Made by a program: the position numbers and the translations under genes. Positions 9,629-62,639 of a DNA stretch of 64,000 nucleotides are shown here, in pieces. How positions within the stretch are numbered: the first letter of the stretch is position 1; each line of letters starts with the position of its first letter. Source of the DNA: Trypanosoma brucei. Lineage: Eukaryota. The notes under the pieces are model-generated. The model had not been told where the DNA came from. It saw nothing but the letters and a program-made list of their open reading frames with translations, and searched no databases. Location of the stretch: assembly GCA_000002445.1 (NCBI GenBank), contig CP000071.1, forward strand, positions 1,792,001-1,856,000. Reading direction: 5' to 3'.

Positions 9629-9892
9629 ATGTTTCGCATGACTCGGCTGCGCATGGCCATTACTGCAGCTGATATTGAGGCGAAACTAAGAAACAGCGAG
9701 AAACTCAAACCCGTGCATGGCGTAAAAGTAGTGGACGTGAGCGGTGGTTGCGGGAGTTTCTTCAACATCACGGTAACATCTGCAGCATTCCGTGACCGGT
9801 CGTTGGTGCAGCAACATCGTCTGGTAAATGAAGTGCTGAAGGGAGAAATTCCCCTGATTCATGGTTTTTCACTCACGACTAAGGTGGAATGA
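9629..9892 (+). CDS. BolA-like protein with a possible basic N-terminal mitochondrial presequence
   Basis: 87 aa. BolA fold signatures: …KLKPVHGVKVVDVSGGCGSFFNITVTSAAFRDRSLVQQHRLVNEVLKGEIPLIHGFSLTT. The N-terminus MFRMTRLRM is basic and lacks acidic residues. Confidence 0.6.
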   Translation: MFRMTRLRMAITAADIEAKLRNSEKLKPVHGVKVVDVSGGCGSFFNITVTSAAFRDRSLVQQHRLVNEVLKGEIPLIHGFSLTTKVE

Positions 9893-10669
9893 GAATGGAG
9901 GCGGAGGATGGCAAAATAAATAGAGAAAGAACACATGGAAAAGCAGAGCAGTGCCTTGTTTGTGCACGTATCGCTGTGTGTTTGGAAATTTTTGTCCGTA
10001 GTTGAGAGAATTCAGCCCCTCCTTTTCCTCTCACCTGTGCTTCGACTTCAATTCACAATGCCATTTTCTACCTTCGGTTAATGGCATGTGCGGAAGTTGC
10101 CTTTGGGATGCTGCCGCTTCTAATCATCATTATCATCACTGTTTATCGTTATCTATTGATGCATTTTAAACGGTACGCAATGGCTTATATGTTCCACAAA
10201 GCAGTGGGATCGAAGAGGAATAGGCACGTCATTACATGAGTTATGGACTGAATTTGCGCTTGTTTGTGCTGCCATTCGCTGACTTTTTTGTGCGTGTTTG
10301 TGAGAGAGTTTGTCGGCACGAAAGATGAATGAGTGGTGGCCTTCAGGCGTTAACATCATCAACCATCAGCGTTGTTATCATCATTATTGCTATCGTTGTA
10401 TAATTGGTTTTTTGTTCTTGTTTTTGTTTTCGTTGTTGTTTTGATTCACGACCTGTCGGGTGACACACATTGGCAACAAAATGCAGCGTTCGATGATATG
10501 AAGAGACGGGCTGCAAAACCTTTCCTTTGGAAAGAGATTCTGTACTTTGTGAAAAGTGCGATTAGGGCACTGTTGTAACCAACACCTCGGCCAAGCACTG
10601 AAGATTGGTGAATTAAAGTGACGAAAGAAAAGAAGTAACAAAGTTAAATGAACTGACCTTCTTCACGTC

Positions 10670-10770
10670 GAACACCTACCGTTTCCTTTTTTTTTTGCGT
10701 TTACTGTCCGCTTTTGTTACGGCGTTCCGCAGTCCTATTTCGTCTGTTTCAAGTTGTATTTCCCATCACC
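10670..10770 (+). promoter_or_regulatory. Polypyrimidine tract upstream of the TBCD-like gene
   Basis: cgtttccttttttttttgcgtttactgtccgcttttgttacggcgttccgcagtcctatttcgtctgtttcaagttgtatttccc. Confidence 0.45.
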
Positions 10771-10874
10771 TAGTTCCCCAAACATACACACATACAAAAA
10801 AAAGTGGGGAAAGTAACGAATTAAATAAATAAATAAATATATATATATATATAGGTTTTACCCGCCACTTAGCG

Positions 10875-14906: not shown

Positions 14907-15012
14907 AGGGGAGAGGATCCCATGCACATCCTATAGTGGAGCTATATTTTTTAAAGGGGAAAGAGATAAAACAGGTAAATAAAACAGTTAAGCCTATTTG
15001 TTCTTCTTTCCA

Positions 15013-18439: not shown

Positions 18440-18912
18440 AGGCTCACACTTGGTGGACGATCTTTAACCGGTGACGGGTTGAGAAAAGAATGAGGCTGAA
18501 CAGGTCGTGTGCACACGTGGAAGTGTGCGGCTCGCTACATATGTTATTTCTTTCAGTGCAGTTTTGAGGAGTGTTGTTACGGGGAATGGTGTCTGGAAGA
18601 CTGAGTGTTGGCACCGAATGTGCCACCCTGTGCTCAGAAACTTGTGTGAAATCGCTTGTCTCTTTTGCTAACATTGCCACATCCGACGTACGCATTTTCA
18701 TGCCTACGGAGTTGTCAACATGGAAACGGAAAAGGGTGCGTTTGTCTTCCTAAGTGCTACTTCACCCGGCATACATCGCTTTGCATAGTCAGCAGGTGTT
18801 GTCAAATGTGTCTCTCTTTGCTCGCGTCACCTCTCTGCCTATGTTCCTTTCGTCATGTTGTTGATTGCTCATCCATATTTGGGTAAATGATAAAGGTTTC
18901 TGTCAATTCTTT

Positions 18913-20631: not shown

Positions 20632-20958
20632 GTAATGTGAAAGCGAAGACTGAGAGGGGTCGTGTCACCTCACCGAACGTAGGTGTTGTGTGCACATACA
20701 TGGGGAGGGCTATTTGATGGTGGTGTGATTTTCTCTCTGTTTGTTAACCCCTCCAGTATATAAGCCACGAGAGAGGTATGACGAGAACAACGTTTGGTCA
20801 TTCCCTTCCTCCTCCTTCAACTTTTTTTCCGTTATTTTCTTTTAGGTGTTTAATCGTTGCTAGTCGTTGCGCCTAGGGCCTCAAAAGGAAGTGAAATTGG
20901 TGAAAGTCACTGCTGAAAGGGTCCTTCTTTTTGTCGTCGCAGTTAAGCAAAGGCACAC

Positions 20959-21948
20959 ATGGTCCGCTGGGGTGGTCCACGCTTCGAGTTCTACTTCACC
21001 CGCGACTTCTTGAACCACGAGTACCTTATAAAAAAGGAGGAAGCGCAGCGCGCGGCATTCATCCATAGTAAGCGGGAACATGAAAGGGCAAAAGAGGACG
21101 CTCGGTTTGCTGAAGCTGAACAGAAGAAGGCTCAACTCCAGGAAGAGGCCCAGCGACTAATGTCTGCAGAGGTGGAGGAGGCCGCCCGCCGCGCTGCTGC
21201 GGAAGCCGCAGCTCAAAACACTGCACATGCACGGCGACTCCGACGCCTGAAGGAATTGGCGGTTCCTGTCATTCGCGGGAGCTCTGCTCATTCCGCTGGA
21301 AGCCACGGTTGCGTGATGTACCCAACTCCGAAAGGTGTGCCTCTTCCTATGGGTCGCGACAGGGCTCCCTACACTCCAGGGGTTGATCGTCACCGTATTG
21401 TGCCACCCCCACCGGAACCTGGCGCCCATAAACCATGGCAAGGCAGTGGAACGGCATGGATGACGGATAAGAACAATGACTGGCAGAAACAGTACTACTT
21501 CACCAAGTCCAAGCGACCCGCGGAAACTCTGAGGGAGCGGAGGGCGTGCATTGATAAGATGGAGCGGTGTCACACCAATGAAGGTGCAGCAAAGAAGCCA
21601 CCAGTGAACCAAGACGAAAGTCCCGCAAATGACCAACGTGAAATTCCCACATTTGGGACAGAGAGGCAGCATGATGAGATGGGATCGGAAAGTGAATCAG
21701 AGCGCCCACTTTCAATCTTCTCCCACGGAAGTTCCAATGCTCCCATTAGGGCGTTAGGTACGCAGCACATGGGGGATATTTCCACGAAGGAGGAGGTACG
21801 AGAGTTCCTAAGGCGGTACCCAACAGGTGTGGTGCCGCCCAGGGACCGGAGGGCAGCTCCACCTAATTTCAATGGCATGAATCTCACGGAGCTCACATCT
21901 TCCCTAATCAAAATGCAGAAGTGTAATTTGTGCGGTGGACATCCGTAG
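20959..21948 (+). CDS. Hypothetical protein with a charged/coiled N-terminal region and a Pro-rich middle
   Basis: 329-aa ATG-initiated + strand ORF between polypyrimidine tracts. …KEEAQRAAFIHSKREHERAKEDARFAEAEQKKAQLQEEAQRLMSAEVEEAARRAAAEAAAQ… predicts a coiled/charged helix. Confidence 0.5.
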   Translation: MVRWGGPRFEFYFTRDFLNHEYLIKKEEAQRAAFIHSKREHERAKEDARFAEAEQKKAQLQEEAQRLMSAEVEEAARRAAAEAAAQNTAHARRLRRLKELAVPVIRGSSAHSAGSHGCVMYPTPKGVPLPMGRDRAPYTPGVDRHRIVPPPPEPGAHKPWQGSGTAWMTDKNNDWQKQYYFTKSKRPAETLRERRACIDKMERCHTNEGAAKKPPVNQDESPANDQREIPTFGTERQHDEMGSESESERPLSIFSHGSSNAPIRALGTQHMGDISTKEEVREFLRRYPTGVVPPRDRRAAPPNFNGMNLTELTSSLIKMQKCNLCGGHP

Positions 21949-22347
21949 TAGAGATATTTGTACCCTTTCACCCCCTCTTCATGTATTATACTCAACGACA
22001 GTGGTAGAAGAAAAACTGTTTCTCTCGACACCTACGCTGACAAAGTAGGGGATGTGGTGTGCCTTTGGAATCATCCATGAAGAAAAGGTAGCGATACCGA
22101 AGTTAGGTAGAAGAGTTTCGGATATATATTTTTTATTGTTGGTGGTGGTTCACTCTTTGTTCATCCCGTTTGTTCTCTTTCTCTACGCTTCACTTCTGTA
22201 CGATAGAGGATAAGCAGCTAGATAGCGCCAATCAGTGACATCGACACGTCACATACGGCACACGCGTAATCCTTGAAAAAAGTAAAAAAAAAAGTTCGCT
22301 AGAAGGATACAAGAGACAAACACCCATACAATTACAAAACCAAAAAA

Positions 22348-23148
22348 ATGACAACATTGCACACTATTTCCAGCCTTGACTACGGTGATGGGCGGACATG
22401 TGTTTGCCGTATCTGTGTCTGCGGCAAACACAGGTGTACTGACCCAAAGTTGCCCTTCTTCGGGGAAACCACCTACAGAGATGAGTACGTCCCAAAGAGC
22501 ACCGTGCGTGATATTGGCCGCGCAAGGCCCTCCACTGTATTTCCCATGAAAGCGGACCCGGGCCACTTCAAAACCACCAAGCAGGAGGCGTGGGAGCCAC
22601 TTGAGGGCAAAATAGTGCGCCCCGCGGAATCCTTCAAACCGCGCACGGTGCTTGGGGAGCCTCTTCCCTTTAATGCCACCACCACACACCGCAATGACTT
22701 TCCGGGGCACCTCCCCGATCACCACCGAGCCCGCTACAAGCAGGAACCGTTGCCTAAACTGAAGGGGACCTATGAGACAACCAACCAGGCAATGCAGGAG
22801 CCCCTGAACAAGCACCTCGAGGCGGGAGAAATGCCGAAACCACCACAACCGTTCCGTGGCGATGCTACTTTGTTGCGCTCCCTGCCGTTTGACGCTATGG
22901 CAACGTACACTGTTGACTACCCACCAAAGGAGGCTCTGCAACAGCCGCGTCCGCCGCAGAAACAACCGTTTGAATCGATGCCCGACGTTCGTGACTTTGG
23001 TACAACACACTCTGAATCGTACAAGGTGCCGCCTCACCGCGTACGCCGCGTTTGTCCTGCGTCGCAATTGGCACCGCGTCCGCCGTCGGTAGATGGGCAC
23101 TACAAGCTCTCCGTGTACGCTATCCCCTCAGGAGAAATTGCGGATTAG
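22348..23148 (+). CDS. SAXO: SAXO / MAP6-related axonemal microtubule-stabilising protein (Cys-rich N-terminus plus repeated Mn-like motifs)
   Basis: 266 aa, about 30 kDa. N-terminal CVCRICVCGKHRC cysteine cluster. Motifs of the form T-x-Y-x-x-(D/E)-(Y/F)-x-x recur: TTYRDEYVPK, TTHRNDFPGH, ATYTVDYPPK, SESYKVPPH. From memory, the identification also rests on the position right after VPS34 plus two small genes. Confidence 0.6.
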   Translation: MTTLHTISSLDYGDGRTCVCRICVCGKHRCTDPKLPFFGETTYRDEYVPKSTVRDIGRARPSTVFPMKADPGHFKTTKQEAWEPLEGKIVRPAESFKPRTVLGEPLPFNATTTHRNDFPGHLPDHHRARYKQEPLPKLKGTYETTNQAMQEPLNKHLEAGEMPKPPQPFRGDATLLRSLPFDAMATYTVDYPPKEALQQPRPPQKQPFESMPDVRDFGTTHSESYKVPPHRVRRVCPASQLAPRPPSVDGHYKLSVYAIPSGEIAD

Positions 23149-43271: not shown

Positions 43272-44243
43272 TAATTCGCAACGCGAAATTCAAAGATGAC
43301 CGTATGTCCATCAACACGAACTGAAGGCACTCCTTCAAAGTACCTATAAGTCCTTCATGGTACATTTTCCGGTATTCATGCGTCGTAGGTGCCTAATTTT
43401 CATTGTCGTTGCCATTATTGGTTGGCCTTCCTCCCATAACTTCAGACAGTAGTCCGTTGAACTGATGCAAGCACGCGCCTTCCGAAGGATAATGTAGCAT
43501 AACACGGTTACCTTGTCAGGTGCGAGGAGGCTCCGTGATTGAGTGGGCAAAAAAAAAGAAAAAGAATAAACAAATAAATAATGAAATGGGGAGGGAGGGA
43601 GGGAAGAGAGGCAATGGAAAGAATCTGAAGTGGGAAGTGGGAAGGAATTTGACAGGTGAGGAAAGTACGAGGAACCGTGTGACTCCCGCACACAAGTTGC
43701 ACTTCCGCGAATACTGTCAAAGTGCGCGACTTTGTTTTCTCCTCTTCCTAATGACAATTTGTGTGTCGTTTCACCTACTCTAAGGATTTTTTTTTCGTCG
43801 ACTCGCATTTGTGTCTTGCCAGAATTGGGTGTACTTCGCTCCTCTTCTTCTTCATTCTCATTTTCATCCTTTAACATCTCGCGAACAAACGTGCATACAT
43901 AAATTCCCCGCATTTTTTTTTTGGCGGACAAAAGTAACGAGCCCAAATCCAGTGTGGGAGAAAGGACAAAAGAAAACAACAGGCAAGCGAACAAGGTTGT
44001 GGTGGGCTGGAGTAAAGAAATATATTATTTTTCTATTTGGTGTATTTTATATTTCGCTTCTCCACAATAGCCATATACAAAAAAAAAACACCAATAACAA
44101 TATAAAATAAATAACAGCAAGCAATCAGCCTTTCAAACGGCAATAATCTGGAAGGGAGCAAATAAACTAATAGACAAACGGAAAACAGAAATATAAAGGA
44201 AGTGGATTACTCGAATCGTAACTTTAACTTCAGTGATATCAAT

Positions 44244-45254
44244 ATGAAGAAGGCTTTGATCTCGGATTTCTTTCGTGAGGGAGTAAATGTGGCTGCGCGG
44301 GGTGTAAGCGAATGCAATGGAGCTACTGCGCCTCAACTTCATTCTCGGTGTGATTCCAGCATAGATGATGTGGACAACCGAAGTGTTGGTTGTTGTCACA
44401 GTCGTTGCGATAGCGCAGGGAGCGAGTGGGTGTGCCCTGAACTGCATGAGAAACGCTCAGAGCGGGAAATCCTCCTCCTCACTCCATCCGTCGCCGCGCC
44501 CCAACATTACGACAAAAGAGAAAAGTTAAATGAAGCCGATTCCCTACACTTGAAACATGCAGCGGAGTATGAAATCATCGTCCCTGCTGTGGCCCGCGCG
44601 CTTCAACATGTGGTGGAGGCTCATGAAACCTGGCGGCTGGAGATGTCTTCATCTGCTGGTGGCATACGTGTGCGGAAAAGTCTCATTTCCAACAGTAGTG
44701 CCGCACATGCTGCTACAGATGTTGCTGCTGCATGTGGTTCTGAGGGCACCGTGAGAGAAAAGAAAAGGAATCACTATCCGCAGGTATTTGAATCAGCAGT
44801 GCCTCCACCCTTCACGCTCCTCCACTACGTGCAGATGCTGGCAAACCATACATTTGTATCGCCATCCGTCCTTGTTGCAGCGTGTTTATATACAGATCGA
44901 TTTATTGAACAGTGGTCCGACTTGCGGTTAACATTGAACAATGTATTCAAGATCTTTCTTACGGCTGTGCGCGTTGCCAACAAAATTCTGGACATTAGAG
45001 TACTAAATAATGAGGACTTCGCCGCTGTTGGTGGGGTGAGTAACCCGGAACTCAATGCCATGGAAAAGATATTTACATGGGGTCTACGATTTGACTTGTA
45101 CATCAGCTCAACGGAGTTTGACCGGTACGTCACCGGTCTCATGTCTCAATCTTCCACAAAACCTTTTAAGCAGGTCGGTTGCACTTGCAAAATCACGAAG
45201 TCAAACATTATGATTGAGGTACCTGCAGAGGCAGTGGAAGGCGCAGCAGTTTGA
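44244..45254 (+). CDS. CYC10: PHO80-like cyclin (probably the gene named CYC10 in T. brucei)
   Basis: The track start is a GTG; the first ATG is at 44244. PHO80-type cyclin box …LLHYVQMLANHTFVSPSVLVAACLYTDRF…IFLTAVRVANKILDIRVLNNEDFAAVGGVSNPELNAMEKIFTWGLRFDLYISSTEFDRYV…. The name comes from locus order recalled from memory and needs checking. Confidence 0.55.
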   Translation: MKKALISDFFREGVNVAARGVSECNGATAPQLHSRCDSSIDDVDNRSVGCCHSRCDSAGSEWVCPELHEKRSEREILLLTPSVAAPQHYDKREKLNEADSLHLKHAAEYEIIVPAVARALQHVVEAHETWRLEMSSSAGGIRVRKSLISNSSAAHAATDVAAACGSEGTVREKKRNHYPQVFESAVPPPFTLLHYVQMLANHTFVSPSVLVAACLYTDRFIEQWSDLRLTLNNVFKIFLTAVRVANKILDIRVLNNEDFAAVGGVSNPELNAMEKIFTWGLRFDLYISSTEFDRYVTGLMSQSSTKPFKQVGCTCKITKSNIMIEVPAEAVEGAAV

Positions 45255-46385
45255 GCAAATCTCTCCTTTTTCATACCATAATATAATATTATTGGTAGTT
45301 CTCCTTCTTATCTTATCTTCTTCATCTTTTTTTCATATTCTCTTTTTTTTTCAAGTTTTTGTCTCCTTATGAGAGGTTGGTTGACAAGTGACTGCAACGA
45401 AATGCTTAGGCAAAAGTGAGAGGGGGAAAGTTTTTAAAAAAAGAAAAGAAGTGAGATATATGTGTGAAACAATGAGAGATTATTTTAAGTTCATTACTTA
45501 CCAATTTGTTTTCTCCTTTGGGTGCGAGTTAGGTTAAGGGAGAAATAAATCAATTACCACGGGATATAAATGTTTATATTTGTGTGAGTGCTTTTGTTTT
45601 TTTTTGCTTTATTTTTATTTGTCCGTGATTTTTTCTTTCCATTTCCTCTTTGTTTTTCATTTTCTGAGAGCTTCTTCTTGTTGTTGAGCGGAAGTTTCCA
45701 ACTGTTTTGTTTTTGTTTTTACCATCATTTACTTCCTTCTATTTCTTATTTTTCATTAATTCATTCAGTTTTTTTTGTTTTTGTTACGCCTTATTTACTT
45801 CTCTTCCCCACCACTATCATTTTCTTTTTGTTGTTGTTGAAGAAAGTTTTGTTCTTTTTTTTTTTTTTGATCGATTGATTTTGTTGTTTTTAGTTTGTTT
45901 GTTTTTGTTGTTTTTGTTGTTTGTGTGTTGCAATCGGCTGTGAAGATTTGCGTTTTTGTTTTTTTTTTGTGTGTGTGTGTTTGTTTTGGGGAAAAATAAA
46001 CGCCGTGGCGGCTTCACCATGCTTTTTTTTATTGTTTTTGCTTATGAAAAGGGATAATTTTTTTTTTTTAAAAAGAAAGTGATAAGTAACAAAGAGAAAT
46101 TTTTTTAAAAAAAGGTTAAAGTGCGTGGGGTAGAAATCAAAAAGAAAATGAAGAGAAAGAAAGTTTTTTCTTCTGCTTTTGTTGTGCCACTGCGAAGCTA
46201 AATGAAAGAGGGGAAGTAAACAAGTATATAAGTATATATTTATGTTTATTTATGTATACTTGTTTAAATGTACATTTATGTACAAATGAGGCAAACCAAA
46301 AAAAAAAGCAGAGGAAAAGAGGATTTTCTTCCCTTTTTATTTTATTTTTTTCTTTTGGATTCACTCCTGTTACGCATTGTTACGC

Positions 46386-46436
46386 CTTTATGTATTATTA
46401 TCATTATCATTATTATTATTATTACTATTATTATTC
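46386..46436. repeat. (ATT)n/(ATTATC)n trinucleotide microsatellite
   Basis: attatcattatcattattattattattactattattatt; this accounts for the poly-Tyr spurious ORF 46252-46491. Confidence 0.8.
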
Positions 46437-46715
46437 GGAAAGTATGACGATAAAAGTGAGAAGGCGAGTAGGTGAAATCACTCATATTTAAAGAAAAAGA
46501 AAAGGGTTGAAGGGAAGGAAAACAGAATGTATTCAAATGTATGCTTGTGTTTGTCTCTTTTTTTTTTATATATATTTTTCGAAAAAAAAAAAAGGAAGGG
46601 AAAAAAATGGACTTGCACTGGGAAACTTACAATAAAAGCAACTTATATTTGAAAGCAATAGGACGAAATAATATTAAATGAAGTGGTAATTTAATATTTT
46701 GTTCAATGTTAAATT

Positions 46716-46748
46716 TTCCCTTCCCCTCCCCCTCCCCCTCCCCCCTCT
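46716..46748. repeat. (CCCCT)n C-rich repeat (G-quadruplex-capable on the minus strand)
   Basis: cccttcccctccccctccccctcccccctc. Confidence 0.75.
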
Positions 46749-48065
46749 TTCGATTCCTTTTCTTTTTTGCTTTATTATCGTCATAACTATAACAATAATT
46801 ATTATTACTATCATTGTTACTTCTTTTATCATTATAATAATTTTCTATTAATATCATTTATTATTATTATTATTTATATTTGTGTGTAAGGCGCTGAAAG
46901 TAGCAGGAGAAGGAAAAAATAAAATAAAATAAAGACCAAAGAAAATATCAAAGAAAATAGCGAAGCAGAGATAAAATGATGAAATTATTAAAGAGTCAAT
47001 GGGTGTATTTAAGTGAATTGAGTGAATTTGCATTTGGAAGGTTTGGGAATTGAAATAATAACGGTGAGGGAGTTTTGATGGCTAACGGTGAGAAATGGAA
47101 ATAGAGAGAGTTTGTTTTTTTTTTGGTTTGTTTTTTTTTTGGTTTGTTTTTTTTTGGTGATTTACTTTCGCGACCCCTGCAGTTATTGTTGCGACCTCTG
47201 GATTTGTTCCACAGGGCTGCAGGTTTCTTTCACCTGTTATCTTTTTGTTTTATTTTGTTTTGTATTGCTTTTCACAAAAAAAAGAGAAAAAAAATAATAA
47301 TAATAAACGAAAAACTTTTTGTATAATGGTGCGTCACGTTTCATACAAACCATATCTTTAATATTTATATTTATCCATTTATTTACAAATAAATATTTAT
47401 AGTTATTTATCCCACTTCACTTCATCATGAGGTATATTCCGCTTCTAAACATAAATGTACCGGAATTTCTACCCTCTTTTTTTAAAAAAAAATAAAAATA
47501 AAAAGAATACTGACGGTTTTCATGCGAGTAACAAACTAAAAGCAAATAATTATTACCGTTGTGTTGTATGCTCATACGGTTGTTCAAAGCGTAGAGGTAA
47601 AAAAGAGAAGAAGAATAATAATAATAGTTTTATATTATTATTTTTTAAAAAAAGAAAGAAAGAAAGAAGAGAAAAATTAAAAATAAGAATAAAATTTTTC
47701 ATACCACCGTTCTTCCTGTCCTTGTCATCCTTCACCATTGAATTCCTTCAACTCTGTCCCCAATTGCAAAAGTCGCTTTTGCTTTCGTGTGTGTTTGCGT
47801 GTGTTTTTTTTCCTCCCTTCCCCCTTTAATTTCATTATTTTAAATTTATTTCTCTACAGCAACACCTCCTCACATCTTTCATTTCATTTCATTTTTTTTA
47901 TTGAAAACGTCAACATCTTTCGGTTTATATCTTTCGTTCCATTCATCGTTTTTTTTTCTTCTTCTCGTTGTTGTTGTTGTTGTTGTTTTCGCCATGTGGG
48001 CATGCGGGTGTATTTTCCCATTTCTTTTTATCTTTTGAGAATAAAATTTTTATACCGAATTTTTT

Positions 48066-48067
<2 letters not shown>

Positions 48068-48098
<31 letters not shown>
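48068..48098. repeat. (AT)15 microsatellite
   Basis: atatatatatatatatatatatatatatatat. Confidence 0.85.
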
Positions 48099-48101
<3 letters not shown>

Positions 48102-49842
48102 TTCCCCTTTTAATTTTATTTTTCAAACTTCACACCCCACACACACCCGCCTCACACATTCAAACAGACAAATACGCGCAAGCACGCGTGGTAAAAAAAA
48201 TAATAATAATAATAAATAAATAAAAATAGAAAAAGAGACATCCACGTCTTATTATCAGTAATATTAACACTAATGATTATTATTATCGTTATTATATCAA
48301 TGGTTATAATAATTATTGTTGTTATCATTACTGATGGATCCTTTTGGCGTGTTCATAAACAAACACCCGTCCCTTTTTGTATATATTTATTATTTATATC
48401 TACTTGTGAACGTTTATTATTACTATAAGGAAAAACAACAGCAACGATAAGGTGAAAGGAAAAAAGAAAAAAATAAAGTATGAAAGGAAAAAACAAAAAA
48501 AGAATAATGATGAAAAGAAAGTCATATAGGTTCCATGTCATTTTATTACCCTTTTTCTTTTTGACGCTGCTTTATGTTTTTTTTATATGTTTATATTTAT
48601 ATTTTCTTTTTCTTTTCGTTAATTTTTATACAGGTCTTCCATAACATTTTAAATCTAATTTGTTATTATTACTATCATTACAGTTTTTTTTTTCTTTGGG
48701 TCGTTAACACTGTTTCATATCCATGCTTGGATGTTAGTGTTTGACCGGAAGCGTCATCGGAAAATCATTTTCGACCATTTTTTTTTTTACTTTTCTTTCT
48801 TTTTTTGTATTTGCATATGTTCTTTTCTTTTCTTTTTTTTTCCTCATTCTTTTTTTGTTTGCGAATTAAAGGTAATGAGGCAAAAATACTTTGGTGGTCG
48901 CCTCTTACATGTGTTCATGTTCATGTTTATGTTTATGTTTATGTGTGTGTCTGTGTTTTGACTTTATGAGTAGTTGGATGCCGATTTTACGTCAGAATTA
49001 CATTTCACAACACATTTCCCATTCACTTCTTTTTTTTTTCCTCGCTATTGTTTCGCTTACTTTTCCATTCCATAATTCGCAATGGATGCGCAAGTGCTCG
49101 TATTTTGTTTTTTTTTTGTTGTTGTTGTTGCATTACGTGCTATTGATATTGTTTACTTCTATCGGTAATGCGTGATCATCTCTTATTTAATCAATCAAGT
49201 ATTTATTCTTCCTTATTTCTTTTTTCTATCTTACTATTTTGATAATCATTTATTAGTGAAAGTAAAAGGAATTGTTGTCATTAGGAAGTATAAGTTGAGA
49301 ATCAAATAGAATAAAAAGTTGCATCAAGCTGATAAACGACCTGAGACAAACGGCACGAAGAAATAGGGAAGGAAAATACGACAATTAGACAATCACAGCA
49401 TTTGAGGTTATATATATATATATATCTCTGTGTGTGTGTGTGTGCGTTTCATTATTTCCTTTGGGATTTTTAATTCTCCAGTGAAAATAAGGCATTTTCA
49501 CTACAACTGATTGATCGATACCCACTTTTCTCTCTCTCTTTCTCTTTCCTTTCACCGTTGGGCACAAAGTACTCCGTTTATCCCCTTGTTTCCTGGGTTT
49601 TTGTTACGCAGACGCAAAAGTGTCTGAAAATAAGAGGATAGGCAAAAAAAAAAAAGTAATACAAAAGGGAAGAAATTTCTTTCCTTTTTTTTCTTTTTTG
49701 CAGAAGGGAAACAAAAAGAAGTACAAAGTTATTGATAGTATTATTTAATCTCTCTAAATCCGGTGACTTGCGCCGCTATTGTTGACTGCTTCACCGACAG
49801 CATTATTTTTTTTTTTTTGTCGACTCTCCACGCTTCGCTCAC

Positions 49843-52206
49843 ATGACTGCTCAAACCCCCTCAGGGAAGGCGCATTGCGCTGATCATCAGACGGCTGATA
49901 TGTCGTTGTGGGAACTACCAGTGGATGAACCGTTTCCCCTCGTACAGTTGGTACTTTCTATCCATACACTTTACAATCTCCCGCCGGAACTGGGCCGACT
50001 TGACCCACGCTATGAGCAATTAGAAATTGTGATGTGGCCGGTTGTGAAGTACACATATCGTGAGCGGCGAATCATGCATCTCCCATTACCGGAGCACGTC
50101 TTTCCTGTCTCTGTTACCGCCATGGTGTTGCGAGGTGACACATATTTGATTGACTTTGATGGTATAAAGAAGGATGCCACATGTGAGTCAAGCACTTCAC
50201 TGAGCAGTTCTCCATCATTGGAAGCCCCAGAGGGAAGCAGTGGCGAGCAACCCGTTATTGTAAAGGGAAACTCCGCCACGCTACAGTTCCCGTGTCCCAC
50301 TGGGTTGAGGGCGGTGGTTCGGGTCTCAATTGGAGTCCGCCAGCGCCGGTTAGGCTTCTCTGCAGTGCGGTGGATCACTGAAAACGCAAATCCACGTACC
50401 ACATCGGATGGCATTGGCGTCTTTTCAGTTGCAACGGAGGAGGTTTATCGGACGAAGTTAGTCACACGTGTTGTGGGCCACAGCGTTGGTGCCATGATTT
50501 GCTCTCTTGGGGTCAACCCGTATGATGGTCGCGACGTTATTGTGCAGCGCCTCCTACGCGACAAGGAGCGGTTTACTTCCACATACGTCTCCCAGAGGCC
50601 CGTGCTGGAAAAGGCGAATGTAGAGGCGATGCTGCGAGATGGCTACAGTGAGCAGCTGATTTACCGTCACATGCTTTTGCTTGTCGAACCCAATCACTAC
50701 AAGATGAGGTTGGAAGCCCTATTCACAATGTACGATCTCAATAGGCGCCCGAGTTGGTGGAGAGACTCGTTGCTTCAGACTGATTACATTCTGCGGGAGG
50801 AGGAACTTATTCGACGTGTGTGTGTAGAGATCGGACCTGAATGCAGTGCAACATCCCCACGCTACCGTCTGTGGGCGTTCCGCAAAAAGTATTCCCTCAG
50901 TGAGACGAGTATTGTTTCATGCTTGCGGCCCATTATCAACTCCAGTGTTACTGAAGCACTTCTCTCCGAACCGGGGACCATTTTCGCTGCACTCACTCGC
51001 CGTTTCGGGTGCGAACCGCTGCCAACGGCGTATCTCTTTCCACCGCGAAGTTACGAAGGGGAGTATCGTACATTTATCTTTGAAGCACTGAGCCTTCCGC
51101 TGGGGCCGTTTATGGGTAAGTACACTGACGTGTCACACATCGCACGGGCCAAAAGGGCCCCTTTCACATCGTCACCGTACGAGCAGCCGCTTGCAAAGGT
51201 TGCGGCGGGAAGTCCGCACGGTGGCGTGATGAGTGAAGTGGATGCACTGCGCGCGAAGCATGCACCGGAGTTTGTACAGATTGTGCCTCCTATTGCCGCT
51301 GCGTTACGCGCCGTAGTGGAGCAGAGTGGGAAGTTACCACTGGAACAACAAGAAAAGGCGAACGCGGTAACACATATCTTCTGTGAGAGGCAAATGTCCC
51401 CGCAGGGGCCCTTCCATGATTTCATGCACCGACTGGCGGATCTGACGTTTATTTCACCCGCTACACTTCTTGGAGCGGCAATACTCCTTGACCGCCTCTG
51501 TATGCGGCGGCCTGATATCCTTGTCACGGAGTTGAATGCACCACGTCTCTTCCTCACCTCTGCGCGCGTTGTGTCGAAGGTTCTGGAGCTGCGGAGCGTC
51601 AGCAACCGTTGCTTCGCCAACGCCTTCGGGGTGAATACCAAGACGCTTAACCTGTGGGAAGAATTCTTTATCAAGATGCTCAAGTTTGACCTCTGCATTA
51701 AGCCACAGGAATTCAAGGAGTACACAAACTTACTTTTTACGTCGGGTGCCCCGCCAGTGCGGGTAGCGGCTTCTCCAATATCGAGATTCCGCATTCATAA
51801 CGACAATTTGTGCACGCGGATGGGGTCTCTAACGCGGAAATGTGAAGCAACAACAGCGCTGTCGAGCAGGTCCCTCCGCTCCACAGCCGTTGAAATACCA
51901 AACATGTACACCTACAACAAAAGGTACGGCCCGAGGCAAGGCGCAGATACTGGTTTGGATGGCAGCAATGTTGTTATTGGGCGTGAGGATGATGCAAGAA
52001 ACGCTAGTGCTGCACGGGACATAAAAGCTGCAGCAGGAGGCTCGGGCGGCTCATTGAGTACTTTTGAAGCTGGAACTATGGGTTGTTTATCACACGTAAA
52101 TGACGTGGGGATCCGACGGGGTACAGAACCGACCATTTTGCCTCGAAAAATATGCAATGGAAGGAATTTGAGCCCCTGTCTGACCGTGGCAAGGCGAGGG
52201 AGTTGA
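49843..52206 (+). CDS. CYC11: PHO80-like cyclin with a long N-terminal extension (probably CYC11), paralogue of the upstream cyclin
   Basis: 787 aa. The cyclin box …FMHRLADLTFISPATLLGAAILLDRLC…LFLTSARVVSKVLELRSVSNRCFANAFGVNTKTLNLWEEFFIKMLKFDLCIKPQEFKEYT… is clearly paralogous to 44244-45254, including the preceding …IVPPIAAALRAVVEQ… / …IIVPAVARALQHVVEA… segment. Confidence 0.55.
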   Translation: MTAQTPSGKAHCADHQTADMSLWELPVDEPFPLVQLVLSIHTLYNLPPELGRLDPRYEQLEIVMWPVVKYTYRERRIMHLPLPEHVFPVSVTAMVLRGDTYLIDFDGIKKDATCESSTSLSSSPSLEAPEGSSGEQPVIVKGNSATLQFPCPTGLRAVVRVSIGVRQRRLGFSAVRWITENANPRTTSDGIGVFSVATEEVYRTKLVTRVVGHSVGAMICSLGVNPYDGRDVIVQRLLRDKERFTSTYVSQRPVLEKANVEAMLRDGYSEQLIYRHMLLLVEPNHYKMRLEALFTMYDLNRRPSWWRDSLLQTDYILREEELIRRVCVEIGPECSATSPRYRLWAFRKKYSLSETSIVSCLRPIINSSVTEALLSEPGTIFAALTRRFGCEPLPTAYLFPPRSYEGEYRTFIFEALSLPLGPFMGKYTDVSHIARAKRAPFTSSPYEQPLAKVAAGSPHGGVMSEVDALRAKHAPEFVQIVPPIAAALRAVVEQSGKLPLEQQEKANAVTHIFCERQMSPQGPFHDFMHRLADLTFISPATLLGAAILLDRLCMRRPDILVTELNAPRLFLTSARVVSKVLELRSVSNRCFANAFGVNTKTLNLWEEFFIKMLKFDLCIKPQEFKEYTNLLFTSGAPPVRVAASPISRFRIHNDNLCTRMGSLTRKCEATTALSSRSLRSTAVEIPNMYTYNKRYGPRQGADTGLDGSNVVIGREDDARNASAARDIKAAAGGSGGSLSTFEAGTMGCLSHVNDVGIRRGTEPTILPRKICNGRNLSPCLTVARRGS

Positions 52207-52770
52207 AACTATGGCAGATTATGCACACCAGAACTTTCCTCACATTTTCGTTTTTGAGTTACTGTTTTTTTAATTTATTTCCTTACCTTCCCTTCCCTCC
52301 GTTTCTCTTCGCATGAATAAACGGAAATGTTGTAGAATGACAGAGCTGCGATACTTATGGGGTATGGTGTCTCTAATAAGTGAAGTGTGAACTTGGTACC
52401 CACCCCCTTCCTCTCCAGAGTAAAATAAAGGGGGGAAAGCAGAGCAAAGTGAAGAAAGAAGAAAGAAGAAAGAAAAACGCTCATATTTGTGGTGTTTGTT
52501 CTTTTTTTACCTTTCTTTTCCTCGTCCATATATATATATATATATGTGTGTGTGTGCTTTCCTCTAGTTTTCCATGTTTGTTATTTGACTACTATCATTT
52601 CCATCAGTGTTTTATACTTGTCAACACATCGTATCGATATATCGCCATTTTATACATATTTTTATAATTATATCTTTTTTATTAAATTTGGATTTGCCAG
52701 TGTTTCTGTCCTTCTTTCTTTTTTTGTTTTTTGTTTTAATATTCACCTTCTTCTCAACACTTCCTATGCA

Positions 52771-52806
<36 letters not shown>

Positions 52807-54912
52807 GCGCACAGACAACTTTCAGTCGTTGTTATGTCAGCGCCTGCATGGCTGCGTTGTTTTTTTTTTCCTTGTTTAACTTTTGCGTGTTTTTCTTTTT
52901 TGAGAAACTCGTACTATCGGTGTAACGAAATGAATTGATAATAGCAAAGCAAAGCGAATGGGAAAAATATGCGCGTTTGAATGATTGAGAACCTCAAGTG
53001 TAAAGAAGAAAGATGAACAAAAAAAATGGGAAGTGTGGAGGAAGTGAAAAGAAAAGAAAAGAAAAGAGGGAAAGGGGATATGCAAATGGTTATATCGAGA
53101 ATTCTTTTAATTCCCCTCCTTCAGAGGTGTAACTTAGGCATTAAATAACGAATTTAGTTTAAATTTAAATTAATTTGTTGGTCCGGAAGAAAAAGGAAGA
53201 GAGAAAAATAGGAAAAGTGGGAAGTCTGCAAATTTGATGTTAATCCCCGAAAGCCCACTGAGTGTATTTATATGCACATTTGTGTGTTTGTGAGAGTTTT
53301 CATGTCGCACGACTGCGGGCTTGTATTTGGTTTTTTTTCGCCTCTCACCATTGTTTTCACATATGTGTGTATTATAAATACTCTCATTATTATTATTATT
53401 GTTATTATTTATAGATATTATTATTACTATTGCTGTTGTTGTTGTTGTTTTCGGCATTGTGCATTCCTTGGTATGTGCTACTTAGAGCCATGTCATAGGT
53501 TCCCTCTGCTCTTTACTCCCGTTCTCCCGCACTTCCCCCCTTCGCTTAATTAATTATAACAGTTATTATTTTCACGGTCTCAGGTGCAAATCTACAAAGA
53601 CTTTGTTTCATTATATATTTTTACGGTCGATTCTGTTTGCTTATGTGATAATATTGTTTTTTATGTATGTGAGTGAAGAGACTAAAAGGGATTTCAAAAA
53701 AATTTAATGCTAAATGAGTGGTCGTAGAGAATGAAATTTAATGAGTTGATGATGAAAATGTGGGAAAGAGAATGGGCAGTAAACAGAAACTAATTTTAAA
53801 GCAAATAAAAGTAAGAAAGTGAGTGTGAATACGGAAATATTGATGGAAAGATGAATAAAGCGCGAGGGAACGGCAAAGAGAAGGAGAGGAATGGCACATA
53901 AAATAATGAACCCCTCATATCTCTTTTTGTTTTGTGTGTGTGTGTGTGTATATATGGGTGTGTTACCTTTTCGTTTTCTCCTCTCCTCGTATGAGTTTGT
54001 GTACAATTGTTGTTTTCTTTCCCCCCTTTTATTGGTTCACCCCTCTGGTGTGACCCTTTGGGTTCTTGTTTAGTCTACTGCCATGTGGCACTTCGTCAAC
54101 CTCTGTGAGTTACCCTTTTACAGACATTTTAGTTTGTCCGTTCACTAGCTTTTCACGCACGCGCTGTTTGTTTGCTTCCTTTCGGTTTTTGTTTTGTTTC
54201 AGCCACGCCATTGAAACTGTAGAAAATGAGGGAAAGGGTAGAAAAGGAGTTACGGCCGTTAGCTTCATTACGTCATCCAAAATATATGCGTTTTTGTTGT
54301 TATTGTTGTCTCTGTTTTTTTTTGGGGGGGTTCCGGGAAGCGGGTGCCGCGAGGGTAGCCGCCGAGTTTTTCCAGCCGTTATCCGCGTACGTTCGTGGGC
54401 GCAAATGCTTTGTTTTATTTCAATTTTTTTTCATTTTTTTACTTTTTATTTTTCTGACTTTTTTGTTCTTGAGTGGGTTTCTGTAGTATTTGGGGTGTAT
54501 CGCCACGAAATCGCCACAACTGTTCGTTTTCCCCCAGGATTCCCTCCTTTTCAATATATGCAATACACAGCTTTACCTCCGGGAGCAGCGCCTTAGAGAT
54601 TTCGGTACGCAAAGGAAGAAATAAACATATGTGTATATGTTACTGTTCATTTAAAATATATACGTGTGGAGTGTGACTGAGTGCACGTCAGTGTCTCGTT
54701 TCAGAAGTAGTGAACGGTCTCTTGTTCTAATCCTGTCAGTAGCTTCTCTTGTGCTTTAGCCTTCACATAATTTGATCCACAGGCCCAATTCATACTACAT
54801 TATTAACCCCCGTCGAGGCGCGGACATTCACAGGAAAGGCACACGCAGAAAGGGATATAAAAGGAAAGGGAAGGGGAAAAAAAAACCGGTGCTGCAATAG
54901 CGGCTTTGGCAT

Positions 54913-60321: not shown

Positions 60322-62639
60322 TACGCCCAACAGCAAGATTTGAGGTACTTTATATGGCCTGATGTTGGAGGTGTGTTTTACTGACATGGCAAAGGGAGGG
60401 AGAAAGGAAGAGTAGATATGTATGTGTAAATATAAGTTTAGAAAAGATGGATCGCAGGGGAGCAAACGGTGTTTGGGAGGGGAAAAAAAACAAGTGAAAA
60501 CATGCGAGCATGGATATAAAACAGTGGCGACATTAGAATTTATTAGATTTCCAGTATGTGAGGTAGCCCCATTGCAGCACTGATGGGGAAAAGGAGGGAC
60601 GAAAGGAAAGAGAAATTAAAATGCCCCGACTCTCGCCCCTCCACGCGTTTTTTTTGTTCAAAAGTTTAATTACTGGATCCATGAAAATGAAGAATACTTT
60701 TGTCTTATTATTTACAACAGTGATGATGATGATAGTAATAATAATAACGTGGCAGCAGTATTATTATTATTGTTGTTGTTGTTACTTGAGATCCCTCATA
60801 CTGTTTTGCAGAACGTAAGAAAAAGATAACTTATATTTTTGTTAAAAAGCAAGCCTACCAAGGAAAAGAAAAAGGGAAGGTGATTTGTTTTATTGTTTTC
60901 TTTAATCAATATAGAAGTCCTTTCGCATACGTGAGACAATTACGAGTGTATTTGCTTATTGTTGTTGTTTTAATTCCCCTTGTTTTATTGTTGTCCAATT
61001 GCAATTTTGTTTAATATATATGTATCACTGTTACTGTTACCGTTACGATTTTCTGTTTGTTTCGTTTTTTTTTTGATGTCGTCGTGTAAATAAGGAGGGA
61101 ATGGTGATGGATTTGAGTGTTGGGGCTGCGGCGTGTATTGCTCAAGTGATTTGGCGAGTTAATTTATTTATTTATTTATTAACTTAATATTTATAATATG
61201 GCAGTAGGGGAGGGGGTAACGGAGGAAAAAGGGAAAATGCGACATCATCGCAGTGTATCGTGAAATTTCCGTGCAGTGGTCTCATCCCGCGCGCCTGGTT
61301 TGTATGAACATTCCATTTCTTTATGTTCCCTCCTGTGTTTCATTATTCCCTTGTTTTTTGTGTAGATGAGTTGGTCCTCCTTTTTTTTTTTTTGATAATT
61401 TTCCGCCCCACTTCATTTGTCTTTTTTTTTTTCTACATTGCTTGTTCGTTCCTTTTTTTTTTTTTTTGGTATTTCCTCGATTCTGATTTCGGTCTTTTTT
61501 AAAAAAAAAAAAGAAAAATCCTCTTCCTTGAACACGAGCGCCACGACCTTCACCCACCAACCTCCGAGTTTTCATATTTTAATAGAAGGAAAACTACTAA
61601 CATCGCAAATTGCGATTTGTGTGGTGATTGACGCAGTTCAGCAAACGTTTCACTAATAAAAGGAGAAAATAAAAATAAGAAGAGGACAAAAGGGGGGATG
61701 GTGTGAAAATAAAGCAGCGGCAGGAAAGAGAATTCAGCTCCTCATCATCACACGTTCCAGTAGTCAAGTGATGAAATTTTTTTTTATTTTGTTTGTGTGG
61801 GTTTTCTGTTTGTCGTCGTATCGGCATGTTTTGTTCTGTCGAAGAGGGATTTTCCGCAAATGTGTGTGTGTGTGTGTGTATTTACCGTACCAATAACTAT
61901 TAGTTGTTGTTTTTTTAAATTCAAAATACATTTACCTCGCCTCTTTCCCCAGCTCCTCAATCCCACTAAGTGATAATAACCCAATAAGAAAATGGAAAAA
62001 AAAAAGCAGCGCACGTGGATTGTTTTGTTATTCTTTTTTTCCCTTTAATTCCCTCCTCAGTGTCATATCGTACCTCATTCAATTGCACCTCTTTGTTCCC
62101 CTTTACTTTATTTTTTGTTTAATTTTGTTTTGTTTTTTGCTTTTCCCTTCTTTTTCCCAACGGAAATCCCAAAACCACAGGGGTACAGTCGCTCCCCATC
62201 CTTTAGTTACATTACCTCATAATTTACGGGAACACACATATACCCAAATATACGAATAGACACGCACATATTTGTATATATATATATATATATTCGTATA
62301 TTAGTTGTGGTTGAAAAGGAAAGGAAAGGAAAGGGAGAGTGCGCCCCTACAGTACGTGACGGCGCTTTTGCAGCTTATTCGTTTCTAGTGCTTCAAAAAG
62401 AAAAAGAAGAAAAAAGGAGCGGAGGAACAAAGGGTTCTTCGCCCTTAGTTGTTTCTTTTTTCTTTTTTCTCTTTTTCCCTCCTCCCCCTTTCCTACATTT
62501 AAAGGTAACAGACGACTGTTCGAGGTAAAATATTCAGAAAGTACAAAACGAAGGCAACTAAAGGGGAAAAAAAGGGGGGGTGCATATAGAAACATCAGTG
62601 CAGGGCTGCGTTCCCCCCCCCCCCCCGCCATCCGAACAA

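What the first reader, a model, noticed from the sequence alone, without database searches (positions are those of the whole stretch)
45255..49842. A 4.6-kb gene-free, AT-rich, microsatellite-laden tract inside a polycistronic unit, between two paralogous cyclins
No credible ORF exists on either strand for about 4.6 kb; all track ORFs here are translations of homopolymers or microsatellites. The region is packed with (AT)15, (ATT)n, (TTG)n, (CCCCT)n, a (GTTTGTTTTTTTTTT)3 tandem motif at 47111-47158 and long A or T runs. That is several times longer than typical spacers in this window, which run 0.3-1 kb. It could be an exceptionally long regulatory 3' UTR for the upstream cyclin, a non-coding RNA locus, or a decayed inter-paralogue region.
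Basis: seen in the sequence. Interest (0 to 1): 0.5.

Follow-up and report, generated by a model that had tools for sequence, protein, structure and literature searches.

The report
Long UTRs between two trypanosome cyclins
The 4.6-kb "empty" AT-rich stretch is real, but published Trypanosoma brucei transcript lengths show it is mostly the long 3' untranslated tail of the upstream cyclin mRNA (CYC10) plus the long leader of the downstream one (CYC11), a known kind of feature in this parasite.

Summary
The window is T. brucei brucei TREU927 chromosome 8. The flanking ORFs are the PHO80-type cyclins CYC10 (Tb927.8.6340, 44244-45254) and CYC11 (Tb927.8.6350, 49843-52206).

The tract is 4588 bp, 29.7% GC, and the longest and most AT-rich spacer in the window. 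Simple repeats cover 10.6% of it. It has no credible ORF, no Rfam or tRNA hit, and no pseudogene remnant.

Published TriTrypDB-derived lengths (Antwi et al. 2016 supplements) are:
- CYC10: mRNA 5182 nt, 5'-UTR 309 nt.
- CYC11: mRNA 5620 nt, 5'-UTR 586 nt.

Placed on the sequence, both 5'-UTR lengths land exactly on AG dinucleotides behind polypyrimidine tracts. The tract then divides into three parts:
- a 3862-nt CYC10 3'-UTR (45255-49116);
- a 140-nt processing gap, against a genome median of 142 nt;
- a 586-nt CYC11 5'-UTR with no ATG (10.9 expected).

The CYC10-to-CYC11 spacer is also unusually long (2.4-2.9 kb) in T. rangeli, T. theileri and T. melophagium, but its sequence is not conserved.

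Multi-kb 3'-UTRs on regulator mRNAs are a described class in T. brucei, and CYC10 mRNA is regulated by heat shock and differentiation. Verdict: real, ordinary, already annotated. Transcript continuity was not tested here.

The parts
43935..44243 (+). CYC10 (Tb927.8.6340) 5'-UTR, 309 nt
   Evidence: The TriTrypDB 5'-UTR length of 309 nt (column header) places the splice acceptor at AG 43933-43934. That AG lies just after the T-run at about 43913-43922. The UTR contains 0 ATG, against 5.6 expected (P = 0.002).
44244..45254 (+). CYC10 CDS (336 aa, PHO80-type cyclin)
   Evidence: Pfam PF08613, E = 2.7e-17. The protein is 100% identical to the Trypanozoon 'CYC2-like cyclin'. The CDS length of 1011 nt matches Tb927.8.6340.
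45255..49116 (+). CYC10 3'-UTR, 3862 nt (derived: mRNA 5182 - 5'-UTR 309 - CDS 1011); AT-rich and microsatellite-laden, with 31 internal polypyrimidine tracts
   Evidence: 'Filtered mRNA length' is 5182 nt. [quoted passage not shown] Polypyrimidine tract list. Simple repeats. No ORF, RNA family or pseudogene remnant. The 3' end falls inside a T10 run, so its exact position is uncertain.
49117..49256 (+). 140-nt inter-mRNA processing gap holding most of T/G-rich tract 49103-49129 (which starts 14 nt upstream, in the 3'-UTR end), polypyrimidine tract 49202-49240, and the CYC11 splice-acceptor AG at 49255-49256
   Evidence: Derived, with the sequence. The gap length matches the genome-wide median poly(A)-to-splice-site distance of 142 nt (Kolev 2010). 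It shows 0/140 substitutions against T. b. gambiense and T. equiperdum (not significant on its own).
49257..49842 (+). CYC11 (Tb927.8.6350) 5'-UTR, 586 nt, free of ATG
   Evidence: TriTrypDB gives 5'-UTR 586 nt and uORF length 0. An AG sits exactly at the predicted position, 14 nt after a 39-nt polypyrimidine tract. ATG count is 0 against 10.9 +/- 3.1 expected (0 of 2000 shuffles). ATG-free leaders also occur in T. rangeli, T. melophagium and T. theileri. A second good acceptor (tract 49676-49699, AG 49702) could give a shorter leader of about 140 nt.
49843..52206 (+). CYC11 CDS (787 aa, PHO80-type cyclin)
   Evidence: Pfam PF08613. The protein is 100% identical to a T. b. brucei TREU927 protein. 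It is paralogous to CYC10 over the cyclin box.
52207..54876 (+). CYC11 3'-UTR, about 2670 nt (derived: 5620 - 586 - 2364); a second long, AT-rich UTR
   Evidence: The derived end abuts an A9 run at 54877-54885, so an internal-priming artefact is possible.
47110..47155 (+). 16-nt tandem repeat GTTTGTTTTTTTTTTG, 2.9 copies; copy number is polymorphic
   Evidence: Tandem Repeats Finder reports 100% matches. T. equiperdum has only two copies.
48069..48098 (.). (AT)15 microsatellite
46388..46874 (+). (UUA)/(AUU) repeat arrays (46388-46435 and 46798-46874) flanking a C-rich run at 46718-46744
   Evidence: UAUUAUUAU occurs 9 times in the 3'-UTR against 0.4 expected. (UAU)n is the motif bound in vitro by ZC3H11 (Droll 2013). 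Binding to CYC10 mRNA is not shown.

Best explanation
The tract is almost entirely transcribed untranslated sequence belonging to the two flanking cyclin mRNAs. It is not an empty spacer and not a separate gene.

RNA polymerase II reads through it as part of one polycistronic unit. The CYC11 mRNA is trans-spliced at AG 49255-49256, behind a 39-nt polypyrimidine tract. That splicing event directs coupled cleavage and polyadenylation of the upstream RNA about 140 nt earlier, near 49116. The results are:
- a CYC10 mRNA of about 5.2 kb, of which 3.86 kb is 3'-UTR;
- a CYC11 mRNA with an unusually long 586-nt leader that lacks any upstream ATG.

Inferred function. The long, U-rich, repeat-rich 3'-UTR is the platform for post-transcriptional control of CYC10. 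It would keep the mRNA at about one copy per cell through length-dependent loss. It would also offer many low-specificity protein-binding sites, including (UAU)n, U-runs and A-runs. Those sites could underlie the observed rise in CYC10 mRNA after heat shock and during differentiation. For the full-length isoform to be made, the roughly 31 internal polypyrimidine-tract/AG signals must be ignored or masked, as has been shown for other long 3'-UTRs that depend on DRBD18.

Status of each step:
- Shown here: anatomy, composition, absence of genes, exact AG matches, ATG depletion, and conservation of spacer length.
- Taken from the literature: UTR and mRNA lengths, half-lives, regulation.
- Inferred: transcript continuity, and any regulatory role of particular elements.
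For: - Antwi et al. [quoted passage not shown]
- Both 5'-UTR lengths place the splice site exactly on an AG preceded by a polypyrimidine tract.
- The derived poly(A)-to-splice-site gap is 140 nt. The genome median is 142 nt, with an interquartile range of 123-178 nt.
- Both 5'-UTRs lack ATG entirely: 0 against 10.9 expected (0 of 2000 shuffles) and 0 against 5.6 expected (P = 0.002). The 3'-UTRs have 15-19 ATG per kb.
- The tract holds no gene. There is no Rfam or tRNA hit and no Pfam domain in its ORFs. No ORF is conserved in distant species, and frames are broken in T. b. gambiense. No gene is called there in the T. equiperdum or T. b. gambiense annotations.
- CYC10 mRNA is regulated. It rises 16.5-fold after 41 C heat shock. 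It is in the core heat- and differentiation-induced set. It is higher in parasites from human and rat blood than in culture. Its half-life is 13 min in bloodstream forms and 52 min in procyclic forms, at about 1-2 copies per cell.
- The CYC10-to-CYC11 spacer is 4-9 times longer than neighbouring spacers in T. rangeli (2447 nt), T. melophagium (2613 nt) and T. theileri (2904 nt, including 926 N).
- Multi-kb 3'-UTRs on regulator mRNAs, and masking of internal polypyrimidine tracts, are described.
Against: - No RNA data were examined directly. The 3'-UTR length is an arithmetic derivation from database lengths.
- A poly(A) site coupled to the CYC11 splice site would exist whatever the 5' end of that RNA is. 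It therefore does not prove one continuous 5.2-kb CYC10 mRNA.
- The derived 3' end lies inside a T10 run. The CYC11 3' end abuts an A9 run. Mapping or priming artefacts are possible.
- The 31 internal polypyrimidine-tract/AG signals make internal processing plausible.
- Sequence constraint is weak. Divergence from T. b. gambiense is 1.26% in the tract, 0.91% in other spacers and 0.62% in CDS. Nothing aligns with distant trypanosomes. Most of the sequence may therefore be neutral.
- The RBP10 motif UAUUUUUU is not enriched (2 observed, 2.5 expected).
Confidence: 0.75

Rival explanations
1. Independent non-coding transcripts. Internal polypyrimidine-tract/AG signals would be used, so CYC10 has a short 3'-UTR. 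One or more spliced-leader-capped, polyadenylated lncRNAs would then cover most of the tract. The RNA ending near 49116 would be one of these and not the CYC10 mRNA. This could also coexist with a long CYC10 isoform.
For: - There are 31 sense-strand polypyrimidine tracts of at least 18 nt inside 45255-49116, each followed by an AG within 1-137 nt.
- T. brucei has over 1,400 mostly intergenic, AT-rich lncRNAs that are trans-spliced and polyadenylated (Guegan 2022). Kolev 2010 reported 1,114 novel transcripts.
- The distal poly(A) site does not prove transcript continuity.
Against: - The database model assigns the distal poly(A) site to CYC10.
- There is no Rfam family and no embedded snoRNA, unlike grumpy.
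- No sequence block is conserved.
- The lncRNA catalogues could not be queried, because no supplement text was held.
Confidence: 0.15
2. Passive padding. The tract is physically UTR, but its sequence is neutral. Microsatellite slippage and AT-biased drift would have inflated it in the T. brucei lineage. Any effect would come from length alone, not from specific elements.
For: - Substitution rate is at least as high as in other spacers (1.26% against 0.91%).
- There are 92 indel positions against T. b. gambiense, and repeat copy number is polymorphic.
- Nothing aligns with other trypanosomes.
- Simple repeats are 25 times more abundant than in shuffles.
- The T. brucei tract is 1.7-2.1 kb longer than in other species, and is more AT-rich than its neighbours only in T. 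brucei.
Against: - A spacer 4-9 times longer than its neighbours is retained across deeply diverged trypanosomes, which argues that length at least is maintained.
- CYC10 mRNA is strongly regulated. [quoted passage not shown]
Confidence: 0.2
3. A decayed gene. The tract would be the remnant of a lost paralogue, of the lost C-terminal part of CYC10, or of a retroposon.
For: - The flanking genes are paralogues.
- T. brucei CYC10 lacks a C-terminal tail of about 175 aa that five other trypanosomes share. Up to about 0.5 kb just after the stop codon could therefore be former coding sequence.
Against: - tblastn of all window proteins, and of the orthologue tails, against the tract finds nothing better than E of about 0.6.
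- No Pfam domain reaches its threshold.
- There are no internal or window-wide duplications or long inverted repeats.
- Other species already have a spacer of more than 2.4 kb here, so the long spacer is ancestral.
- Trypanosome retroposon libraries were not available for searching.
Confidence: 0.03

Closest known systems
Multi-kb regulatory 3'-UTRs of T. brucei regulator mRNAs (RBP10 7.3 kb; DRBD12 mRNA about 8.4 kb; ZC3H20/21/22 over 4 kb)
   Same: A several-kb 3'-UTR sits downstream of a gene for a low-abundance regulator. It contains many internal polypyrimidine tracts, and its mRNA is regulated by development or stress. Its poly(A) site is set by the next gene's splice signal.
   Different: The gene encodes a PHO80-type cyclin, not an RNA-binding protein or a kinase. 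No reporter dissection exists, and no evidence was found of DRBD18, ZC3H28 or RBP10 binding. The RBP10 motif is not enriched.
T. brucei trans-spliced, polyadenylated lncRNAs (for example grumpy; Guegan et al. 2022)
   Same: The sequence is AT-rich, non-coding and located between genes, and it carries ordinary splice and poly(A) signals.
   Different: No independent transcript has been demonstrated, and there is no embedded snoRNA or Rfam hit. Database gene models assign the sequence to the CYC10 and CYC11 UTRs.
Long 5'-UTRs in kinetoplastids
   Same: The CYC11 leader of 586 nt is far above the 89-130 nt median. Leaders over 200 nt are reported to lower expression.
   Different: It is completely free of upstream ATGs over 586 nt, and over 675 nt counting from the last ATG. 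That implies it is scanned and under selection. An alternative proximal acceptor at 49702 may also be used.

Membership tests
Long regulatory 3'-UTR of a T. brucei mRNA | Lies directly downstream of a CDS, on the sense strand, inside a Pol II polycistronic unit | tested here: met
   It starts at the CYC10 stop codon. All credible genes in the window are on the + strand.
Long regulatory 3'-UTR of a T. brucei mRNA | Contains no independent protein-coding gene or known structured RNA gene | tested here: met
   Rfam and tRNA scans are empty. ORFs are low-complexity, not conserved and frame-broken in T. b. gambiense. No Pfam domain was found. No gene is called there in related annotations.
Long regulatory 3'-UTR of a T. 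brucei mRNA | Mapped poly(A) site at the distal end, about 100-200 nt upstream of the next gene's trans-splice site | tested here: met
   The position is derived from published TriTrypDB lengths. The 3' end is at 49116 and the next splice acceptor at 49255-49256, a gap of 140 nt against a median of 142 nt. Caveat: the end lies in a T10 run, and no reads were inspected.
Long regulatory 3'-UTR of a T. brucei mRNA | One continuous mRNA joins the CDS to the distal poly(A) site (Northern or long read) | not testable with these tools
   No RNA-seq, Northern or long-read data were accessible. No Logan transcript contigs carry this protein.
Long regulatory 3'-UTR of a T. brucei mRNA | The mRNA is post-transcriptionally regulated | tested here: met
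   From the literature: a 16.5-fold rise after heat shock, membership of the differentiation-linked induced set, higher levels in vivo, and half-lives of 13 min against 52 min between stages.
Long regulatory 3'-UTR of a T. brucei mRNA | UTR fragments confer regulation on a reporter | not testable with these tools
   This is an experiment. No such study was found in full-text searches for the two gene IDs.
5'-UTR of CYC11 | Begins at an AG preceded by a polypyrimidine tract, and is depleted of upstream ATG | tested here: met
   The AG at 49255-49256 lies 14 nt after a 39-nt polypyrimidine tract. ATG count is 0 against 10.9 expected. TriTrypDB gives 586 nt and uORF length 0.
Trans-spliced lncRNA (Guegan 2022 / Kolev 2010 novel transcripts) | Its own spliced-leader addition site and poly(A) site inside the tract | tested here: inconclusive
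   Signals are abundant, with 31 polypyrimidine-tract/AG pairs, but their use cannot be read from DNA. The catalogues could not be searched.
Trans-spliced lncRNA (Guegan 2022 / Kolev 2010 novel transcripts) | Low coding potential | tested here: met
snoRNA or other small structured RNA cluster | Match to a covariance model, or a tRNA | tested here: not met
   There are no hits at gathering threshold across the whole window. The only hit at E of 1 or less in 43-54 kb is a chance miRNA-like match (23.6 bits against a cut-off of 76). No tRNA was found.
Pseudogene or decayed paralogue | Residual protein-level similarity to the flanking cyclins, their orthologues or other genes | tested here: not met
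   The best tblastn E-values are about 0.6-2. No Pfam domain was found.
Retroposon remnant (ingi/RIME/DIRE/SIDER) | Similarity to retroposon consensus or reverse transcriptase/endonuclease domains | tested here: inconclusive
   No RT or endonuclease domain appears in the ORFs, and nothing repeats elsewhere in the window. No trypanosome repeat library was available.

The most novel reading that the evidence does not exclude
The tract may be a switchable processing zone and not a fixed UTR. Its roughly 31 internal polypyrimidine-tract/AG signals would be unmasked under particular stages or stresses. Unmasking would produce short-UTR CYC10 isoforms and/or spliced-leader-capped lncRNAs that co-regulate the two adjacent cyclins. 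That would explain their joint induction by heat shock and during differentiation, and the retention of an oversized spacer here across the trypanosomes examined.
Probability: 0.12. Interest if true: 0.45.

Novelty: already known. Interest (0 to 1): 0.15.

Why it matters
This matters little beyond bookkeeping. The tract is an instance of the known rule that trypanosome regulator genes carry very long UTRs, because control is post-transcriptional.

Three modest additions come from this work:
- The oversized CYC10-to-CYC11 spacer is conserved in length class, but not in sequence, across distant trypanosomes.
- Both cyclin leaders are strikingly free of ATG.
- T. brucei CYC10 has lost a C-terminal tail that other species share.

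If the 3'-UTR were shown to mediate the heat-shock and differentiation response of CYC10, it would give a handle on how a poorly understood cyclin pair is tied to life-cycle transitions.

Tried and rejected
- Rfam at gathering threshold on the whole window and at E of 1 or less on 43-54 kb, plus ARAGORN: nothing real.
- Homologue searches with CYC10 and CYC11 each returned only the Trypanozoon protein. Synteny was therefore anchored on the conserved PLAA-like WD40 neighbour.
- T. congolense: the protein has no contig on record. T. vivax: no orthologue was returned.
- The T. cruzi Sylvio and T. conorhini contigs stop just after CYC10.
- The TREU927 CYC11 lookup failed, so chromosome coordinates were not obtained.
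- Sequence comparison of the tract with T. theileri, T. melophagium, T. rangeli and L. major spacers gave only low-complexity hits.
- tblastn of window proteins, CYC10 orthologue tails and tract ORFs gave nothing. Pfam on the ten longest ORFs gave nothing above threshold.
- Inverted-repeat and self-similarity scans found only low-complexity pairs.
- Supplements of Guegan 2022 and Siegel 2010 are not held as text. Kolev 2010 supplements do not contain the gene IDs. Fadda 2014 tables gave no UTR lengths.
- The RBP10 motif, AUUUA and the PUF core are not enriched.
- The DRBD18 papers do not mention these cyclins.


Full report
**Identity of the locus.** The 336-aa ORF at 44244-45254 is 100% identical to the Trypanozoon 'CYC2-like cyclin'. 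The 787-aa ORF at 49843-52206 is 100% identical to a T. brucei brucei TREU927 protein on a 2,481,190-bp contig. Both carry the PHO80-type cyclin domain PF08613. They share 30% identity over the cyclin box (E = 1e-24). Their CDS lengths of 1011 and 2364 nt match Tb927.8.6340 (CYC10) and Tb927.8.6350 (CYC11) in published tables. All credible genes in the window are on the + strand, as expected inside one polycistronic unit.

**The observation.**
- Size and composition: the tract 45255-49842 is 4588 bp and 29.7% GC. It is T-rich on the sense strand (AT skew -0.17). It is both the longest and the most AT-rich of 18 spacers. The others are 229-3197 bp (median about 0.7 kb) with 37-48% GC.
- Repeats: the named microsatellites are present, with two corrections. 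The 47110-47155 repeat has a 16-nt unit, and the 'CCCCT' array is an imperfect C4-6T run. Perfect simple repeats cover 10.6% of the tract. The figures are 4.1% for other spacers, 0.2% for CDS and 0.4% for composition-matched shuffles.
- ORFs: the longest ATG-ORF (124 aa, low complexity) barely exceeds shuffles (78 +/- 20 aa, P = 0.037). Indels break its frame in T. b. gambiense. It has no Pfam domain. No tract ORF matches the syntenic spacers of distant trypanosomes.
- Structured RNAs: Rfam and tRNA scans are empty.
- Other gene remnants: there is no residual similarity to either cyclin or to any other window protein. There is no duplication elsewhere in the window, and no meaningful inverted repeat.

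**What it is.** Antwi et al. 2016 (PMC4845500) list, from TriTrypDB, a 'filtered mRNA length' of 5182 nt for CYC10 and 5620 nt for CYC11. They give 5'-UTR lengths of 309 and 586 nt, both with uORF length 0. [quoted passage not shown]

I placed these numbers on the window.
- CYC10 leader: a 309-nt leader puts the CYC10 splice acceptor at 43933-43934. That position is an AG just after a T-run.
- CYC11 leader: a 586-nt leader puts the CYC11 acceptor at 49255-49256. That position is an AG 14 nt after a 39-nt polypyrimidine tract.
- CYC10 3'-UTR: this is 5182 - 309 - 1011 = 3862 nt, spanning 45255-49116.
- Processing gap: the remaining 140 nt between the poly(A) site and the next splice site compares with a genome-wide median of 142 nt (interquartile range 123-178 nt; Kolev 2010).

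The tract therefore splits into 84% CYC10 3'-UTR, 3% processing gap and 13% CYC11 5'-UTR.

An independent signal in the DNA supports the two leaders. The 586-nt CYC11 leader contains no ATG, against 10.9 +/- 3.1 expected (0 of 2000 shuffles). The 309-nt CYC10 leader also contains none, against 5.6 expected (P = 0.002). The 3'-UTRs carry 15-19 ATG per kb. ATG-free stretches upstream of CYC11 also occur in T. rangeli (323 nt), T. melophagium (291 nt) and T. theileri (133 nt).

**Comparative evidence.** I used the conserved PLAA-like WD40 neighbour as an anchor.

| Species | CYC10-stop to CYC11-ATG spacer | Other spacers in the same locus |
|---|---|---|
| T. equiperdum | 4568 nt | not measured |
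| T. b. gambiense | about 4.6 kb | 260-967 nt |
| T. theileri | 2904 nt (includes 926 N) | 304-552 nt |
| T. melophagium | 2613 nt | 370-655 nt |
| T. rangeli | 2447 nt | 219-553 nt, plus 2579 nt after CYC11 |

The T. cruzi Sylvio and T. conorhini contigs end 237 and 367 nt after CYC10.

The long spacer is therefore ancestral and its length class is maintained. The sequence itself is not alignable between lineages. Within Trypanozoon the tract diverges at least as fast as other spacers. Against T. b. gambiense it shows 1.26% substitutions, compared with 0.91% in other spacers and 0.62% in CDS. It also has 92 indel positions, and repeat copy number is polymorphic. The extra AT-richness relative to neighbouring spacers is specific to T. 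brucei.

**How it most likely works.** In trypanosomes the poly(A) site of one mRNA is set by the trans-splicing signal of the next. The distal splice signal at 49202-49256 would thus define a CYC10 mRNA of about 5.2 kb. The 3'-UTR contains 31 sense-strand polypyrimidine tracts of at least 18 nt, each followed by an AG. These must be skipped or masked. That requirement has been shown for other long 3'-UTRs, where DRBD18 prevents recognition of internal tracts.

CYC10 mRNA is clearly regulated:
- It rises 16.5-fold after a 41 C heat shock in procyclic forms (Droll 2013).
- It belongs to the core heat- and differentiation-induced set together with CYC11.
- It is higher in parasites from human and rat blood than in culture.
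- Its half-life is 13 min in bloodstream forms and 52 min in procyclic forms, at about 1-2 copies per cell.

The Clayton review notes that regulator mRNAs often have 3'-UTRs several kb long. It suggests this lowers abundance through length or allows many proteins to bind. (UAU)n-type repeats are enriched (9 against 0.4 expected) and resemble the ZC3H11 in-vitro motif. The same paper found no overall link between ZC3H11 binding and increased mRNA after heat shock, so this is only a lead. The RBP10 motif is not enriched.

**Limits.** I saw no RNA data. The 3'-UTR length is arithmetic on database values. The derived 3' end falls in a T10 run, and the CYC11 3' end abuts an A9 run. A poly(A) site coupled to the CYC11 splice site would exist even if internal trans-splicing produced separate non-coding RNAs. 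The lncRNA rival, or a mixture of isoforms, therefore remains open. The lncRNA catalogues could not be searched. The weak sequence constraint also allows that most of the tract is neutral, slippage-inflated padding whose only property under selection is length.

**Comparison with known systems and novelty.** At 3.9 kb the 3'-UTR is about ten times the median of 388-400 nt, but within the reported range of up to about 6 kb. It is shorter than the 7.3-kb RBP10 3'-UTR. It meets the features of this class that could be tested. Transcript continuity and reporter activity could not be tested. The gene models already exist in the community database and have been used in published analyses, so the finding is already known.

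Minor new observations are the cross-species conservation of the oversized spacer and the ATG-free long leaders. A third is that T. brucei CYC10 lacks a C-terminal tail of about 175 aa shared by five other trypanosomes.

**Verdict.** The feature is real, ordinary and already explained. Interest is low.

Noticed in passing
window 44244-45254, compared with L003 13254-14774, L004 13124-14650, L005 13093-14616, L006 13039-14595 and L007 13365-14933: T. brucei CYC10 is 336 aa. Orthologues in T. theileri, T. cruzi, T. rangeli, T. conorhini and T. melophagium are 506-522 aa and share a homologous C-terminal tail of about 175 aa (blastp 1e-6 to 1e-51 between species). T. brucei lacks this tail, and no trace of it is detectable in the 3'-UTR.
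   Followed up: partly
window 52207-54912: The spacer after CYC11 is also long (2706 nt, 37.6% GC), and T. rangeli has 2579 nt at the same place. The derived CYC11 3'-UTR (2670 nt) would end at 54876, immediately before an A9 run and only 36 nt before the next gene's ATG. The annotated poly(A) site may therefore be an internal-priming artefact, or the UTRs may overlap.
   Followed up: partly
window 47110-47155 and the corresponding region of L001: The 16-nt tandem repeat GTTTGTTTTTTTTTTG has 2.9 copies in TREU927 but 2 in T. equiperdum. Most differences between Trypanozoon strains in the tract are length changes at simple repeats.
   Followed up: yes
L004 (T. cruzi Sylvio) 14651-14887; L006 (T. 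conorhini) 14596-14962: Both contigs terminate 237 and 367 nt after the CYC10 orthologue's stop codon. This suggests the downstream region is hard to assemble in those genomes too.
   Followed up: no
L008 (L. major) 16618-22487: No gene is called for more than 5.8 kb downstream of the cyclin orthologue. A 370-aa ATG-ORF at 20537-21649 is uncalled. The CYC11 orthologue was not located within the fetched flank.
   Followed up: no
window 7678-10874: This second-longest spacer in the window (3197 nt, 44% GC) has no ORF of 150 aa or more. It was not examined for small genes or long UTRs.
   Followed up: no
L002 (T. b. gambiense) 19234-19291 against window 49843-49902: The T. b. gambiense annotation starts CYC11 at the codon equivalent to M20 (768 aa), while the TREU927-type ORF is 787 aa. 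In T. b. gambiense an ATG also appears 407 nt upstream, within the leader that is otherwise ATG-free.
   Followed up: partly
window 60322-62579: This is another long spacer (2258 nt, 37% GC) with high simple-repeat coverage (8.8%). Repeat-rich long UTR-like spacers therefore recur in this window.
   Followed up: no
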